Shown here: positions 30 through 23,119 of the stretch, piece by piece | Layout of the letters: every line of letters starts with the position of its first letter | Position numbering within the stretch: the stretch's first letter is position 1 | From: the human T2T-CHM13v2.0 reference genome, Homo sapiens | Direction: 5' to 3' (one strand) | DNA: 64,000 nucleotides | Assembly (NCBI RefSeq): GCF_009914755.1 | Contig: NC_060927.1 | Program-made: the position numbers and the translations under genes | Notes under the pieces: model-generated | Told to the model about the DNA's origin: nothing | Database searches by the model: none | The model's input: the letters and a program-made list of their open reading frames with translations, nothing else

Positions 30-455
30 CTGTTGTTGATGCTGCTCCAAGGCTGTGACTCTATGTCCAGGCTATGGGAGGAGTTGTGGAAGGCAACAAG
101 AGCCCACTGAACAGTGGGCAGGGTCCCAGGTTGGAGGGAGCAGCCTGTGCCTGCTACAGTACCCAATCTAGGACCTGCAGGTGTCCACCCTGGCCCCTAA
201 CACCCCCACCAGGCATCCCCTAGCATAGGGTGGCCACCTCTTGGGCCACAGCTTCCAGCTGCAGTGGGAGCAGAGCCAGGAGTTGGTCTCAGAAGGTGAA
301 GCAGGTGGGACAGGAGGTGCAGTGTGGGAAGGCACCTCTGGAGCCATGAGCACATGCCTGGCACCTCAGCCCTAAGATGCCCTCTCTGAAGAAGCAGGTG
401 CCCATGTGTGAATCACAGCTGGGCAAGATGGAGCCCTGTGGGTCACAGGCACAGG
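30..455 (-). pseudogene. LAMB2P1: Laminin-beta fossil exon: last LE repeat and start of the coiled coil
   Basis: cag| then CACDPQGSILPSCDSHMGTCFFREGILGLRCQACAHGSRGAFPHCTSCPTCFTF*DQLLALLPLQLEAVAQEV. Compare LAMB2 ACDCDSRG...[35 protein letters not shown]. Has internal stops. Confidence 0.85.
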
Positions 456-532
456 CTGCAGAGGAGAGATAGGGTCAGGGTAGAGAGCAGATGACACTAG
501 CTCTAGCCTTACCTTCGAGAGACCTGAAGGAT

Positions 533-1710
533 GGGCCAGGTGCAGTGACTCACACCTGTAACCCCACCACTTTGGGAGGCTGAGGCAGGAGGATCACTTG
601 AGCTCAGGAGTTTGAGACCAGCCTGAGCAACATAGGGAGATCCTGTCTCTACAAAAAAATTTAAAAATTAGCCAGGTGTGGCGGCGTGTGCTGTAGTCTC
701 AGCTACTCAGCAGGATGAGGTGGGAGGATCACTTGAACCTGGGAGGTTGAGGCTGTAGTGAGCTAAGATCATGCCACTGTACTCCAGCCCAGGTGACAGA
801 GTGAGACCCTATTTCTTTTCCTTTTTTTTTTTTTGTGAGACAGAGTCTCGCTCTGTAAGTGTAGTGGTGCGATCTCGTCTCACTGCAACCTTCACCTCCC
901 AGGTTCAAGCAATTCTCCTGCCTCAGCCTCCTGAGCAGCTGTGACTACAGGCAACCGCCAACATGCCTGGCTAATTTTTTTTTTTTTGTATTTTTAGTAG
1001 AGACGGGGTTTCACCATATTGGCTAGGCTGGTCTTAAACTCCTGACCTCATGATCTACCCGCCTCGGCCTCCCAAAGTGTTGGGATTACAGGCGTGAGCC
1101 ACTGTGCCTGACCCATGAGACCCTATTTCTGAAAAAATAATAGGTCTGTGGGAGGCTAAGGTGGGTGGATCACTTGAGCTCAGGAGTTCAAGACCAGCCT
1201 GGGCAACATGGAAAAACCCCATCTCTACAAAAAATACAAAAATTAGCTGGACATGGTGGGGCACACCTGTGGTCCCAGCTCCTCAGGAGATAAGGCGGGA
1301 GGATCCCTTGAGCCTGGAAGGTTGAGACTGCAATGAGCCAAGATTGTGCCACTGCACTCCAGCTTGGGTGACAGAGTGAGAGCCCGTCTCAAAAAAAAAT
1401 GTCTGAAGGGGCTGAGCACGGTGGCTCACGCCTGTAATCCCAGCACTTTGGGAGGCTGAGGCGGGCAGATCACGAGGTTAGGAGATTGAGACCATCCTGG
1501 CTAACATGGTGAAATCCCGTCTCTATTAAAAATACAAAAACAAAATTAGCCGGGCGTGGTGGCGGGCACCTGTAGTCCCAGCTACTCAGGAGGCTGAGGC
1601 AGGAGAATGGCATGAACCTGGGAGGCGGAGCTTGCAGTGAGCTGAGATCTCACCACTGCACTCCAACCTGGGCGACAGAGCGAGACTCCGTCTCAAAAAA
1701 AAAAAAAAAT
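533..1710. mobile_element. Nested Alu cluster (mixed orientation)
   Basis: Alu consensus blocks and A-tails; ctgaaggatg is repeated at ~524 and ~1712 as a flanking duplication. Confidence 0.9.
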
Positions 1711-2151
1711 ACTGAAGGATGAGAATGGCCCTGTGTAGGTGTGAGGGTGCACACCAACCCTTGCCTAAGCCACTGCTCAGAACTGCCATGGGCACTGGCA
1801 TTTACCCTGGACAGAGAGGCCATACTGCATGGCAGTATTTGGGCAGGAAAACAGCACAGGGTTCCAGGGGCTCTACAGCCCTGTCAGGGGTCAACCAGAG
1901 TCAAGGGCTGGCAGGCAGGGTGAGGAAAGAGCCACCTGATGTGTCCTCTCTATAGGCATCCCTCGCCTAGCCTTGCTGTTTCCCTTCAGCTGTTTTCACA
2001 AGTATTTCTTTAAGTTCTTTGGGGAAACAGCAATAAACGTGCTGTGTTCTCCCTCAGGAAAACCCCAAACACTCCCTTGCTACTCCATATTGAGCAGCCC
2101 CTGCAGGGCAGCCTCACCCCTGGCTGTGGAATGTGCAAGTGCCCCTCTCAC

Positions 2152-2248
2152 CTCTGCACTCCTGCTCAGGGTCACCCCAATACCCATTCTGCAACTGGGA
2201 GCATTTGCAGCTCCCAGACGCTGCCCAGCAGGGGCACTGACCTGTGAC
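2152..2248 (-). pseudogene. LAMB2P1: Laminin-beta fossil LE exon
   Basis: cttcag|VTGQCPCWAASGSCKCSQLQNGYWGDPEQECR|gtgaga, matching LAMB2 [32 protein letters not shown]. Confidence 0.85.
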
Positions 2249-21299: not shown

Positions 21300-22204
21300 T
21301 TTTCTTTTTTTTTTGAGATGGAGTCTTGCTCTGTTGCCCAGGCTGGAGTGCAGTGGCACGATCTCGGTTCACTGCAACCTCCACCTCCCAGGTTCAAGCG
21401 ATTCTCCTGCCTCAGCCTCCCAAGTAGCTAGGACTACAGGTATGTGCCAGCACGCCTGGCTAATTTTTTATATTTTTCTTTTTTGAGACAGAGTCTCGCT
21501 CTGTCGCCCAGGGTGGAGTGCAGTGGCGCAATCTTGGCTCACTGCAAGCTCCGCAGCCCGGGTTCACGCCATCCTCCTGCCTCAGCCTCCTGAGTAGCTG
21601 GGACTGCAGGCGCACGCCGCCATGCCTGGCTAATTTTTTGTATTTTTAGTAGAGACAGAGTTTCACTGTGTTAGCCAGGATGGTCTCGACCTCCTGACCT
21701 TGTGATCCACCCACCTCGGCCTCCCAAAGTGCTGAGATTACAGGTGTGAGCCACCACACCCGGACAATTTTTTGTATTTTTAGTAGAGACAGGGTTTCAC
21801 CATATTAGCCAGGTTGGTCTCGATCTCCTGACCTCGTGATCCACCCGCCTCGGCCTCCCAAAGTGCTGGGATTACAGGCATGAGCGACTGTGCCCGGCCT
21901 TGATGGTAACTTTTTTTTTTTTTGAGATGGAGTCTTGCTCTGTCGCCCAGGCTGGAGTGCAGTGGTGTCATCTCAGCTCACTGCAAGCTCTGCCTCCCTG
22001 GTTCACGCCATTCTCCTGCCTCAGCCTCCTGAGTAGCTGGGACTACAGGCGACCGCCACCACGCCCAGCTAATTTTTTGTATTTTTAGTAGAGACAGGGT
22101 TTCACCGTGTTAGCCAGGGTGGTCTCGATCTCCTGACCTTGTGATCCGCCCGCCTCAGCCTCCCAAAGTGCTGGGATTACAGGCATGAGCCATTGCGCCC
22201 GGCT
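21300..22204 (-). mobile_element. Alu cluster inserted in the fossil GVENVTIQLDLE exon
   Basis: Target-site echoes tgatggtgacatttt (~22204), tgatggtaactttt (~21901) and gatagtgatgtttt (~21288). Confidence 0.88.
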
Positions 22205-22399
22205 GATGGTGACATTTTCAACACCTGCAGCCATAGGGCTAGTGAGTGACTAGGCCCTGACCCCGTACCTCCACACGTAGGCACACTGCACCCTCACCAC
22301 TCTCTGCCTACCAGGTCTTGTTGCCACCACGGCCACTCTGGGAGATCACGTTCTTAATGTCATGGCCTCCCTGGTCGCAAGAGTCACAGGGGCAATTCT

Positions 22400-22706
22400 T
22401 TTTTTTTTTTTTTTTTTTTTTTTGAGACGGAGTCTCGCTCTGTCGCCCAGGCTGGAGTGCAGTGGCGGGATCTCGGCTCACTGCAAGCTCCGCCTCCCGG
22501 GTTCACGCCATTCTCCTGCCTCAGCCTCCCGAGTAGCTGGGACTACAGGCGCCCGCCACTACGCCCGGCTAATTTTTTGTATTTTTAGTAGAGACGGGGT
22601 TTCACCGTTTTTTAGCCGGGATGGTCTCGATCTCCTGACCTCGTGATCCGCCCGCCTCGGCCTCCCAAAGTGCTGGGATTACAGGCGTGAGCCACCGCGC
22701 CCGGCC
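22400..22706 (-). mobile_element. Very young AluY (Ya5-lineage diagnostics)
   Basis: CpGs essentially intact; CCATCCCGGCTAAAA, GGGCGTAGTGG and GAGATCCCGCC diagnostics; pure A-tail; 14-bp TSD acaggggcaattct at 22386-22399 and 22709-22722. Confidence 0.88.
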
Positions 22707-23119
22707 AGACAGGGGCAATTCTGAGTTTTGGGTTAGGACTCAAGGAAACTGACTAGAGAGGTTAATCATCAGATCTCTACTCCAAAATTTCACAGCACAT
22801 GCCTCTAGCTCCCAGCAATGACCCAGACCCCCAACAGGGCTGAACCAGCCCAGGACACCCAAAGAAACCAGCCTCCAGAGCCCTCACCTGCAGGTGACTG
22901 CCAATGAAGTAGGGCTCAGGGCCTACTGGATGAAGTTCGAAGGCTCTGGCTCTGGCCCCAGCCAACAACCAGGATGCTGATGCAGCCAGATCGGGAAGGG
23001 ATATCTGGCACTCCCTGGGAAACTGTTCTAGGAGCCTGGACTAGGAGGGGCAGCATCTGACTAGAGATCCTAGGAATACCCACCCCTCTCCACCCCACCC
23101 CACAGGGAACCTTGATTTC

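What the first reader, a model, noticed from the sequence alone, without database searches (positions are those of the whole stretch)
30..23056. A nearly complete fossil laminin-beta gene spans 23 kb, far beyond the short LAMB2P1 annotation
Seen: 23 minus-strand exon remnants translate, in order, to the laminin-beta architecture (signal end, LN, LE1-5, L4/LF, LE6-13, start of coiled coil). Most keep AG/GT boundaries and short LAMB2-like introns, and they carry stops and frameshifts. Known, from memory: LAMB2P1/LAMB2L is described as a short unprocessed pseudogene covering roughly the 15-16.4 kb part. LAMB1 and LAMB4 form a tandem pair, and non-mammalian vertebrates have a lamb2-like gene. Inference: this is the unitary pseudogene of a lost fifth laminin-beta chain lying in tandem with LAMB2, and the remaining coiled-coil exons should lie just left of the window.
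Basis: partly seen in the sequence, partly recalled or inferred. Interest (0 to 1): 0.9.

Follow-up and report, generated by a model that had tools for sequence, protein, structure and literature searches.

The report
Dead fifth laminin beta gene
Between CCDC71 and LAMB2, humans carry the roughly 26 kb wreck of a whole fifth laminin beta-chain gene (LAMB2L) that other mammals still have as full-length predicted genes, of which the reference annotation marks only 1.5 kb.

Summary
On the minus strand, 32 colinear coding blocks (about 30 exon remnants) run from window 23056 to -3115, which is 3.1 kb left of the window. They cover residues 40-1846 of a bat laminin beta-2-like protein, and a TAA stop follows the last aligned codon. 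The blocks are 68% identical to that protein (1039 of 1526 codons in 31 blocks). All 32 blocks together carry at least 17 in-frame stops and 22 frameshifts. There are also two Alu insertions inside exons and a deletion of about 178 codons. No first coding exon was found.

The remnants are not a copy of LAMB2: they are 62% identical to bat LAMB2L but 40% identical to human LAMB2. In an IQ-TREE analysis the human sequence nests inside placental LAMB2L (100/100). LAMB2L is sister to LAMB4 (99/99). The order LAMB2L-LAMB2 on chromosome 3 mirrors LAMB4-LAMB1 on chromosome 7.

It is therefore a unitary pseudogene. The gene is not lost from all mammals: full-length predicted orthologues exist in bats, ruminants, hippopotamus, tenrec, marsupials and platypus. 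RefSeq LAMB2P1 covers 5 remnants. I could not check GENCODE's model.

The parts
22888..23056 (-). Remnant E2: end of signal peptide and start of LN (bat LAMB2L aa 40-106)
   Evidence: 35 of 55 identical, 1 frameshift. GTGAGG donor.
22296..22400 (-). Remnant E3 (aa 109-145), LN
   Evidence: 23 of 35 identical, 1 stop. A poly-A tail of a repeat sits directly upstream.
21240..21302 (-). Remnant E4 (aa 147-168), LN
   Evidence: 18 of 21 identical. Poly-A of a repeat lies at its 5' edge.
20953..21158 (-). Remnant E5 (aa 165-233), LN
   Evidence: 46 of 68 identical, 1 frameshift. Pfam Laminin_N 36.4 bits on ORF 20926-21114. 52 bits to mouse laminin beta-1, PDB 4aqs.
20822..20887 (-). Remnant E5b (aa 232-253), LN
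   Evidence: 16 of 22 identical. AG acceptor and GT donor.
16143..16361 (-). Remnant E6 (aa 254-325), end of LN and start of LE1; first remnant inside RefSeq LAMB2P1
   Evidence: 53 of 72 identical, no lesion. Pfam Laminin_N profile positions 191-233.
15968..16080 (-). Remnant E7 (aa 321-359), LE
   Evidence: 29 of 37 identical, 1 stop, 1 frameshift. No GT seen by eye at the homologous donor position.
15701..15882 (-). Remnant E8 (aa 361-423), LE
   Evidence: 42 of 60 identical, 1 stop, 1 frameshift. Pfam EGF hit 32.9 bits on ORF 15734-15841.
15419..15597 (-). Remnant E9 (aa 425-485), LE
   Evidence: 42 of 59 identical, 1 frameshift. GTGAGT donor.
15177..15287 (-). Remnant E10 (aa 485-521), LE; last remnant inside RefSeq LAMB2P1
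   Evidence: 27 of 37 identical. GTGAGG donor.
13859..13894 (-). Remnant E11 (aa 533-544), LE5
   Evidence: 7 of 12 identical; weak on its own, but colinear with its neighbours.
13303..13771 (-). One exon (aa 546-593) split by an Alu-like insertion at 13364-13681
   Evidence: blocks 13771-13682 (15 of 30 identical, 1 stop) and 13363-13303 (17 of 20 identical, 1 frameshift). The codons for SGYF occur on both sides, giving the target-site duplication TCTGGGTATTTC. The insert has a T-rich start and 7 blastn copies in the window.
12582..13066 (-). One exon (aa 601-650) split by a second Alu-like insertion at 12645-12985
   Evidence: blocks 13066-12986 (18 of 27 identical) and 12644-12582 (13 of 21 identical, 1 stop). 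Flanking repeat GATAGCAT. The insert has 15 blastn copies in the window.
12274..12431 (-). Remnant E13 (aa 649-701), LF
   Evidence: 35 of 50 identical, 1 stop, 3 frameshifts.
12065..12187 (-). Remnant E14 (aa 702-742), LF
   Evidence: 30 of 41 identical, no lesion.
10380..10486 (-). Probable remnant E15 (aa 743-777), LF; lies in the unmasked gap between two large repeats
   Evidence: 23 of 33 identical, 3 frameshifts, score 74. It is colinear with its neighbours. This is the weakest block.
6867..7056 (-). Remnant E16 (aa 784-848), end of LF
   Evidence: 44 of 62 identical, 2 frameshifts.
6647..6780 (-). Remnant E17 (aa 849-891), LE6
   Evidence: 29 of 42 identical, 1 frameshift.
6327..6551 (-). 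Remnant E18 (aa 895-968), LE
   Evidence: 48 of 73 identical, 2 stops.
6105..6272 (-). Remnant E19 (aa 973-1028), LE
   Evidence: 42 of 56 identical, no lesion.
5585..5799 (-). Remnant E20 (aa 1028-1101), LE; its 3' end abuts the masked repeat at 5052-5587
   Evidence: 48 of 70 identical, 2 frameshifts. Repeat coordinates come from the hub's table.
4206..4396 (-). Remnant E21 (aa 1110-1183), LE
   Evidence: 45 of 63 identical, 1 stop, 1 frameshift, and gaps totalling about 11 residues.
2153..2248 (-). Remnant E22 (aa 1182-1213), LE
   Evidence: 23 of 32 identical. AG acceptor and GTGAGA donor.
121..456 (-). Remnant E23 (aa 1214-1325), last LE and start of the coiled coil; its 3' end is the deletion junction
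   Evidence: 77 of 112 identical, 3 stops. Pfam EGF_laminin 30.2 bits on ORF 292-474. Aa 1326-1503 have no match.
1..127 (-). In-window part of the remnant homologous to LAMB2 coding exon 26 (aa 1504-1582). The gene continues left of the window, and this form takes no coordinates below 1. The outside remnants, in window coordinates, are: E26 rest to -218; E27 -1560 to -1745 (aa 1587-1647); E28 -1816 to -1967 (aa 1645-1693); E29 -2150 to -2326 (aa 1692-1750); E30 -2531 to -2689 (aa 1751-1803); E31 -2981 to -3115 (aa 1803-1846, the C-terminus); TAA stop at -3116 to -3118; AATAAA at -3416 to -3421.
   Evidence: aa 1504-1525 at 127-62 (82% identical) and aa 1537-1582 at -81 to -218 (65% identical), in different frames. 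for the outside blocks: E27 39 of 60 identical, 1 stop, 3 frameshifts; E28 35 of 49, 1 frameshift; E29 36 of 59, 1 stop; E30 33 of 53, 3 stops; E31 33 of 44. Stop codon and poly-A signal. The sequence comes from loci L009 and L010.
14928..16470 (-). RefSeq LAMB2P1 transcript NR_004405.1: one unspliced exon covering remnants E6-E10 and their four short introns
   Evidence: Coordinates from the hub's table. The 3' end at 14928 lies 18 nt after an ATTAAA at 14946-14951, inside the intron that follows E10.

Best explanation
This is the unprocessed, unitary pseudogene of LAMB2L, a fifth vertebrate laminin beta chain.

The ancestral gene had about 32 coding exons. It encoded a signal peptide, an LN domain, LE repeats, an LF (laminin IV type B) domain, more LE repeats and a coiled coil. 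It lay head-to-tail just upstream of LAMB2.

In the lineage leading to humans the gene lost its function and then decayed neutrally. The visible damage is point mutations to stop codons, small frameshifting indels, two Alu insertions inside exons, repeat insertions that swelled several introns, and one deletion that removed about 178 codons of the coiled coil. No protein can be made from it.

What remains active is weak transcription of a 1.5 kb unspliced stretch, the RefSeq LAMB2P1 RNA. That RNA ends at a chance ATTAAA signal inside an old intron.

Shown here: the exon map, the lesions, the orthology and the gene order. Inferred: that the predicted orthologues in other mammals are functional, and that the loss is tens of millions of years old.
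For: Extent and order.
- 32 colinear minus-strand blocks run from 23056 to -3115 and cover aa 40-1846 of bat LAMB2L (P0157). A TAA stop follows the last aligned codon.
- The chain scores 1723 bits, against 44 to 386 bits in three controls.

Gene structure.
- Introns are retained.
- GTRAG donors occur at 10 of 28 block ends (random 0.035). AG acceptors with a pyrimidine tract occur at 22 of 29 (random 0.17).

Disablement.
- 17 in-frame stops and 22 frameshifts in 32 blocks spanning 4763 nt.
- Two Alu-like insertions with target-site duplications inside exons.
- Aa 1326-1503 are absent.
- No first coding exon: the best score for an N-terminal query is 39, while shuffled queries score 40-53.

Orthology.
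- 851 of 1368 positions identical to bat LAMB2L, against 359 of 895 to human LAMB2.
- IQ-TREE (LG+G4, 34 rows x 1729 columns): within placental LAMB2L 100/100; sister to bats plus artiodactyls 97/88, with tenrec outside, which matches the species tree; LAMB2L+LAMB4 99/99; LAMB1+LAMB2 85/85. FastTree on 45 rows agrees.

No other copy. The best genome-wide matches to P0157 in this assembly are this locus itself, with stops. The remaining matches fall on chromosomes 1, 3, 7, 12, 16 and 17. Those on chromosome 3 lie in LAMB2, and the chromosome 7 clusters include the exons I confirmed as LAMB1 and LAMB4.

Orthologues elsewhere. Predicted proteins of about 1800 aa named laminin subunit beta-2-like exist in 11 placental species, marsupials and platypus, and further out in birds, reptiles, amphibians and fish.

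Synteny.
- LAMB4 lies upstream of LAMB1 on chromosome 7, both on the minus strand. This is the same order as psi-LAMB2L and LAMB2 on chromosome 3.
- lamb2 and lamb2l are neighbours in teleosts (PMC9504374, passages seen).
Against: - The orthologues are automatic gene predictions. Two are flagged LOW QUALITY (Molossus, Rhynchocyon), and none was shown here to be expressed.
- The pseudogene's protein row in the tree was assembled from HSPs found with one bat query. That could favour regions conserved with bats, although the row does not pair with that bat in the tree.
- LAMB4 sits on a long branch (0.96) and is represented by 3 placental-mammal sequences only, so the LAMB4-LAMB2L sister relation may be helped by long-branch effects. 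The site-mixture model run did not finish.
- Block E15 (score 74) and block E11 (7 of 12 identical) are weak on their own.
- The genome-wide search used a stricter first look and may have missed weak copies.
- The date of loss rests on a crude equal-rate model and on recalled divergence values.
Confidence: 0.93

Rival explanations
1. As the name LAMB2P1 implies, it is a duplicated pseudogene: a copy of LAMB2 made by local duplication in mammals that then decayed.
For: It lies 1.7 kb upstream of LAMB2 on the same strand (and the hub's table). It shares most intron positions and short introns with LAMB2.
Against: - Identity to human LAMB2 is 40% (359 of 895), against 62% to bat LAMB2L at comparable positions.
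- In the tree it is separated from LAMB2 by branches with 99-100 support. It sits inside a clade that reaches back to sharks.
Confidence: 0.02
2. The locus still does something in humans. Either the transcribed 1.5 kb RNA or other transcripts act as a regulatory non-coding RNA, for example on LAMB2 or CCDC71, or a short peptide is made.
For: RefSeq lists it as a transcribed pseudogene with a curated RNA (hub's table). The name appears in lists of differentially expressed lncRNAs in several expression studies (search listing only).
Against: - The RNA is unspliced and ends at an intronic ATTAAA.
- The remnants it covers carry 2 stops and 3 frameshifts.
- I found no sign of conservation beyond neutral decay, but I had no other primate sequence to test this.
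Confidence: 0.05
3. The matches outside 14928-16470 are chance hits of cysteine-rich, EGF-like or low-complexity translations, not a gene.
For: Single laminin-EGF hits at E 0.01-0.1 are weak on their own. Cysteine-rich queries give many off-diagonal hits.
Against: - The non-EGF parts also match, in order: LN at 22400-20822, LF at 13066-6867, and coiled coil at 127 to -3115. Identities are 60-82%.
- Reversed and opposite-strand controls reach only 44 and 136 bits, against 1723 bits.
Confidence: 0.005

Closest known systems
LAMB2L / 'laminin subunit beta-2-like' genes of other vertebrates (zebrafish lamb2l; predicted genes of bats, ruminants, tenrec, marsupials, platypus, birds, frogs)
   Same: Orthologous by tree. 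Same domain order. The C-terminus matches and the stop codon follows the last aligned codon. Same position next to LAMB2, shown here for human and described in print for teleosts (PMC9504374, passages seen).
   Different: The human copy is dead. It has at least 17 stops, 22 frameshifts, 2 exonic Alu insertions, a deletion of about 178 codons and no detectable first coding exon. Its end branch is 0.54, against 0.06-0.16 for the placental orthologues predicted as full-length.
RefSeq LAMB2P1 (NR_004405.1), formerly LAMB2L, described as a transcribed non-processed LAMB2-like pseudogene (Durkin et al. 1999; recalled, paper not held and not seen)
   Same: Same locus and strand. The annotated 14928-16470 corresponds to remnants E6-E10.
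   Different: The annotation covers 1.5 kb and 5 remnants, out of about 26 kb and about 30 remnants. Its name implies descent from LAMB2, which the tree contradicts.
LAMB4
   Same: Sister gene family in the tree (99/99). Same upstream position relative to its partner gene (LAMB4-LAMB1 compared with LAMB2L-LAMB2).
   Different: LAMB4 is intact in humans and lies on chromosome 7. The exon compared is 52-57% identical to bat LAMB2L.
LAMB2
   Same: Neighbouring gene on the same strand, with a similar exon plan and short introns.
   Different: Only 40% identical to the remnants, and in a different clade.
Classic human unitary pseudogenes such as GULOP (recalled from general knowledge)
   Same: A single-copy gene disabled in place, with exon-intron structure retained and working orthologues in other mammals.
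   Different: This locus is filed under the name of its neighbour's pseudogene. Laminin is not mentioned in the main text of the 2010 survey of human unitary pseudogenes (PMC2864566, term search of the main text only). Its supplements could not be opened.

Membership tests
Laminin beta chain | N-terminal LN domain (Pfam Laminin_N) | tested here: met
   3 ORFs hit PF00055 in colinear profile order, one of them at 36.4 bits against a cut-off of 25.9. 52 bits to laminin beta-1, PDB 4aqs.
Laminin beta chain | Two runs of laminin-type EGF repeats separated by an LF (laminin IV type B) domain | tested here: met
   9 ORFs hit PF00053 or PF24973. Blocks E12b-E16 align to aa 572-848 of P0157, and its Pfam LF domain is aa 661-840. 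Pfam did not detect LF directly in the broken ORFs.
Laminin beta chain | C-terminal coiled coil ending at the beta-chain C-terminus | tested here: met
   Blocks E23 and E26-E31 align to aa 1214-1325 and 1504-1846, followed by a TAA stop. Aa 1326-1503 are deleted.
LAMB2L orthology group | Groups with LAMB2L of other species rather than with LAMB1, LAMB2 or LAMB4 | tested here: met
   100/100 within placental LAMB2L. FastTree agrees.
LAMB2L orthology group | Lies next to LAMB2 | tested here: met
   In human the stop codon is at -3118 and the LAMB2 5' end is at -4813 (and the hub's table).
Unitary pseudogene | Reading frame disabled | tested here: met
   17 stops, 22 frameshifts, 2 exonic insertions and 1 large deletion.
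Unitary pseudogene | No working copy of the same gene elsewhere in the genome | tested here: met
   the best matches to P0157 are this locus. The other matches lie on chromosomes 1, 3, 7, 12, 16 and 17, at or near loci that I take to be other laminin and netrin family genes; only LAMB2, LAMB1 and LAMB4 were confirmed here. The search used a stricter first look, so weak copies could have been missed.
Unitary pseudogene | Working orthologue in other species | tested here: inconclusive
   Full-length predicted proteins exist, with LN, 13 EGF stretches and LF. They are predictions only. Expression and function cannot be tested with these tools.
Processed pseudogene (retrocopy) | No introns, poly-A tail, dispersed location | tested here: not met
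   About 29 introns are retained, with splice signals.
Duplicated pseudogene of LAMB2 | Closest relative is the parent gene LAMB2 | tested here: not met
   40% identical to LAMB2 against 62% to LAMB2L. The tree agrees.

The most novel reading that the evidence does not exclude
LAMB2L is an ancient fifth laminin beta chain and the whole-genome-duplication partner of LAMB4. Placental mammals are in the process of discarding it. It died early in the human lineage, perhaps in the common stem of primates and rodents. It may have been lost independently in several other orders. The copies that survive in therian mammals evolve about twice as fast as LAMB2, and the three placental copies tested no longer match the beta-chain helical-domain profile. 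They may therefore have changed or narrowed their function.
Probability: 0.4. Interest if true: 0.55.

Novelty: new member of a known kind. Interest (0 to 1): 0.42.

Why it matters
Textbooks and reviews count four human laminin beta genes. This locus shows that the ancestral set had five, and that humans keep the wreck of the fifth.

Practical consequences:
- The RefSeq record could be extended from 1.5 kb to about 26 kb.
- The locus could be reclassified from a LAMB2 pseudogene to a unitary pseudogene of LAMB2L.
- Orthologues that are now variously named beta-1-like, beta-2-like or beta-4-like could be given a consistent name.
- Reads or variants in the CCDC71-LAMB2 interval should not be mistaken for LAMB2, a disease gene.

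Biological consequences:
- It supports a tidy picture of laminin beta evolution: one tandem pair was duplicated into LAMB4-LAMB1 and LAMB2L-LAMB2.
- It points to animals (bats, cattle, deer, opossum) in which a fifth beta chain could be studied.

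Tried and rejected
I used stop-free ORFs by reference instead.
- A word-index protein search with a 63-aa LN piece and 'longer' lengths found only one 147-aa fragment. The exhaustive representative search then gave usable full-length relatives.
- The genome search was unreachable twice. The same request worked later.
- An IQ-TREE run with the site-mixture model on 45 rows did not finish in the time limit. I used FastTree and LG+G4 instead, so the LAMB4 placement was not tested under a mixture model.
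- Search for the first coding exon and start codon between 23060 and 24600: N-terminal queries from four species scored 32-39, while shuffled queries scored 31-53. I rejected all candidates. One search was a script error caused by a coordinate out of range.
- Search for the missing aa 1326-1503: only Alu-like or off-diagonal hits.
- The 30-nt block shuffle is a poor control, because it keeps coding pieces (386 bits).
- Literature. Six full-text searches found no paper that describes the full extent or orthology of the human locus. Sztal et al. 2011 is not held. Durkin et al. 1999 is recalled only.
- The main text of the 2010 unitary-pseudogene survey has no mention of laminin. Its supplements could not be opened, so the locus may be listed there.
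- I did not run structure prediction, complex prediction or RNA tools, because they do not bear on this question.
Those remnants are now described in the text of the part at 1-127.

Full report
THE QUESTION

That is far more than the 1.5 kb RefSeq LAMB2P1 record (14928-16470).

IS IT THERE?

I cut the minus strand of window 1-23600 into 296 stop-free ORFs of at least 28 aa and scanned them against Pfam.
- 12 of the 296 hit laminin families at E <= 1. Laminin_N hit 21204-21368, 20926-21114 and 16038-16376, at profile positions 77-107, 119-170 and 191-233.
- Laminin-type EGF hit 15734-15841, 15416-15586, 15108-15296, 6637-6825, 6306-6428, 6039-6302, 4167-4346, 2117-2272 and 292-474.
- 4 of the 12 exceed Pfam's own cut-off, and 8 lie outside the RefSeq record.
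- The remaining weak hits went to unrelated families and look like noise.
- Against solved structures, the LN piece matched laminin beta-1 (52 bits). The piece at 292-474 matched rat laminin beta-2 (46 bits).

GETTING COMPARISON PROTEINS

- A word-index search with the 63-aa LN piece found almost nothing.
- The exhaustive search of cluster representatives returned 164 proteins at E <= 0.001, of which 150 were listed, including full-length laminin beta chains.
- The closest, P0006, is named 'laminin subunit beta-2-like [Gracilinanus agilis]'.
- Searching with P0006 returned 1794 proteins at E <= 1e-20, of which the best 120 were listed. Proteins of about 1800 aa with that name, or variants of it, come from these groups:
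  - Marsupials: Sarcophilus, Notamacropus, Monodelphis, Vombatus.
  - Monotreme: platypus.
  - Bats: Rhinolophus, Phyllostomus, Eptesicus, and Molossus, which is flagged LOW QUALITY.
  - Artiodactyls: Dama, Hippopotamus, Bos, Ovis, Cervus.
  - Afrotherians: Echinops, and Rhynchocyon, which is flagged LOW QUALITY.
  - Many birds, reptiles, amphibians and fish.
- No primate, rodent or carnivore appears among the 120. This is weak evidence, because only proteins of 823-2622 aa were searched and only 120 were listed.
- A third search, with a LAMB2 exon from the left flank, supplied named LAMB2, LAMB1 and LAMB4 proteins.

THE MAP

The window's own assembly can be read, so I fetched the 20 kb to the left of the window.
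- tblastn with the Rhinolophus protein P0157 (1846 aa) gave a colinear minus-strand chain from window 23107 down to -3115.
- The chain scores 1723 bits in 27 HSPs. Controls gave 44 bits on the reversed sequence, 136 on the other strand and 386 on a block shuffle.
- A frameshift-aware alignment of each block gives 32 blocks spanning 4763 nt. They cover aa 40-1846.
- 1039 of 1526 aligned codons are identical in 31 blocks. The weaker block at 10486-10380 adds 23 of 33.
- The last block ends with the C-terminal residues of the bat protein. It is followed directly by TAA at -3116 to -3118, and an AATAAA lies 300 nt further on. That is 1.7 kb short of the LAMB2 5' end at -4813 (hub's table).

Domains, using Pfam on P0157 (LN 70-296, LF 661-840, 13 EGF stretches):
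- LN: 23056-16143.
- First LE run: 16143 to about 13680.
- LF region: about 13360-6867.
- Second LE run: 6780 to about 300.
- Coiled coil: from about 300 to -3115.

GENE STRUCTURE

I mapped the human LAMB2 coding exons with a monkey LAMB2 protein and projected the exon ends onto P0157. By eye, most block ends coincide with those positions.

Counted by script at the block ends:
- GT: 23 of 28 donor ends (random positions 0.62).
- GTRAG: 10 of 28 donor ends (random 0.035).
- AG preceded by at least 9 of 12 pyrimidines: 22 of 29 acceptor ends (random 0.17).

By my reading, about half of the introns are under 160 nt, as in LAMB2. The long ones hold the masked repeats listed by the hub. By eye, three donor sites show no GT at the homologous position (after 15968, 15701 and -2326).

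THE DAMAGE

- 17 in-frame stops and 22 frameshifts. One further TAG lies at the junction of the second Alu insertion (my reading).
- Two Alu-like elements sit inside exons, each flanked by a short direct repeat. The first is at 13364-13681, where the codons for SGYF are present on both sides. The second is at 12645-12985.
- Aa 1326-1503 have no counterpart. The block ending at 121 abuts the block starting at 127, so about 178 codons and the introns between them are deleted.
- Repeats with poly-A tails sit at the 5' edges of blocks E3 and E4.
- No first coding exon could be found between 23060 and 24600. Scores were 32-39, against 31-53 for shuffled queries. An Alu with its poly-A lies directly upstream of 23062.

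WHAT IT IS

It is not a copy of LAMB2.
- Projected onto P0157, the remnants are identical to the bat LAMB2L at 851 of 1368 positions (62%). They are identical to human LAMB2 at 359 of 895 positions (40%). LAMB2 and LAMB2L themselves share 481 of 895.
- For trees I chose representatives by name from the 378 proteins in hand: 43 proteins in the 45-row set and 33 in the 34-row set. The rest were left out. I added the pseudogene's conceptual translation to both sets, and a genomic projection of human LAMB2 to the 45-row set.
- FastTree (45 rows), a quick IQ-TREE run and a full IQ-TREE run (LG+G4, 34 rows x 1729 columns) all agree.
- The human row lies inside placental LAMB2L (100/100). Tenrec is outside it. 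Bats plus artiodactyls form its sister group (97/88). This is the species tree.
- The LAMB2L clade runs from shark to mammals and is sister to mammalian LAMB4 (99/99). LAMB1 and LAMB2 are sisters (85/85).
- The caveat is LAMB4's long branch (0.96). It is represented by three sequences only, and the site-mixture run did not finish.

Gene order agrees with the tree.
- On contig 7, the LN exon at 109.304 Mb is LAMB1 (95-98% to LAMB1 proteins). The one at 109.426 Mb is LAMB4 (83-90%). Both are on the minus strand.
- LAMB4 therefore lies upstream of LAMB1, just as the pseudogene lies upstream of LAMB2.
- In teleosts, lamb2 and lamb2l are neighbours, and lamb4 and lamb1a are in tandem (PMC9504374, passages seen).
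- The simplest reading is that one ancestral tandem pair was doubled in the early vertebrate genome duplications. This is an inference.

A genome-wide search of this assembly with P0157 found its best matches in the pseudogene itself, with stops inside.
- The other matches lie on chromosomes 1, 3, 7, 12, 16 and 17.
- The chromosome 3 matches fall in LAMB2.
- The chromosome 7 clusters lie in the region where one search confirmed a LAMB1 and a LAMB4 exon.
- I take the rest to be LAMB3, netrin and USH2A loci from recalled positions. They were not checked here.
- No second LAMB2L copy appeared (which used a stricter first look).
- The locus therefore meets the definition of a unitary pseudogene, apart from the untested function of the orthologues.

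HOW OLD?

This part is inference.
- With an equal-rate model, 17 stops in 1559 aligned codons imply about 0.09 substitutions per site. The frameshift-free blocks alone give 0.12.
- The pseudogene's end branch is 0.54. The paths from the same node to the Laurasiatherian tips are 0.09-0.19.
- Set against recalled values for neutral divergence on the human lineage, this suggests tens of millions of years. The loss would fall around or before the origin of primates.
- This needs other genomes to test.

WHAT STILL HAPPENS AT THE LOCUS?

The RefSeq RNA (14928-16470) is a single unspliced exon. It runs through remnants E6-E10 and their four short introns. It ends 18 nt after an ATTAAA inside the next intron. 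Nothing here suggests a function for it.

COMPARISON WITH WHAT IS KNOWN

- The locus has been known as a transcribed, non-processed LAMB2-like pseudogene since 1999. This is recalled; the paper is not held.
- RefSeq marks 1.5 kb of it.
- Six full-text searches found no description of its full extent, of its orthology with LAMB2L, or of the LAMB4 relation.
- A review-style passage counts four human beta chains and six zebrafish beta genes, including lamb2l (PMC5785718, passage seen).
- The main text of the 2010 survey of human unitary pseudogenes does not mention laminin. Its supplements could not be opened.
- I could not see GENCODE's model, which may well be longer than RefSeq's.

VERDICT

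It is an ordinary kind of object, a unitary pseudogene, at a locus that is already named. The new content is its true size, its identity as LAMB2L, and its place in the family. Interest is moderate.

Noticed in passing
window 14928-16470: The RefSeq LAMB2P1 RNA is an unspliced read-through of five exon remnants and four retained short introns. It ends 18 nt after an ATTAAA (14946-14951) inside an old intron.
   Followed up: partly
proteins P0157, P0162, P0158 compared with P0160, P0183; Pfam column: The three placental LAMB2L proteins I scanned give no hit to the Pfam LAMB1-4 helical domain (PF23219), while platypus and chicken do. The mammalian stem branches of LAMB2L are about twice as long as those of LAMB2. 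This suggests relaxed or changed constraint in therian mammals.
   Followed up: partly
listing: The LAMB2L predictions of Molossus molossus and Rhynchocyon petersi are flagged LOW QUALITY PROTEIN, so the gene may be decaying in those lineages too. No primate, rodent or carnivore LAMB2L is among the 120 listed.
   Followed up: no
and listings: Members of the one LAMB2L clade carry inconsistent automatic names: beta-1, beta-1-like, beta-2, beta-2-like, beta-4 and beta-4-like. Conversely, the true LAMB2 of Gracilinanus (P0287) is named beta-2-like.
   Followed up: partly
window 6273-6326: The intron between remnants E18 and E19 is only about 55 nt, shorter than the 80 nt of the homologous LAMB2 intron. 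It probably shrank by a small deletion after the gene died.
   Followed up: no
window 5052-5587: A masked repeat starts exactly where remnant E20 ends (5585), so the donor site there was probably destroyed by the insertion. From memory its first bases look like an LTR, but I did not check this.
   Followed up: no
proteins P0131 (3843 aa) and P0053 (1652 aa): Two cluster representatives look like odd gene models. P0131 repeats one LE block at least seven times. P0053 joins VWD and C8 domains to a laminin beta body.
   Followed up: no
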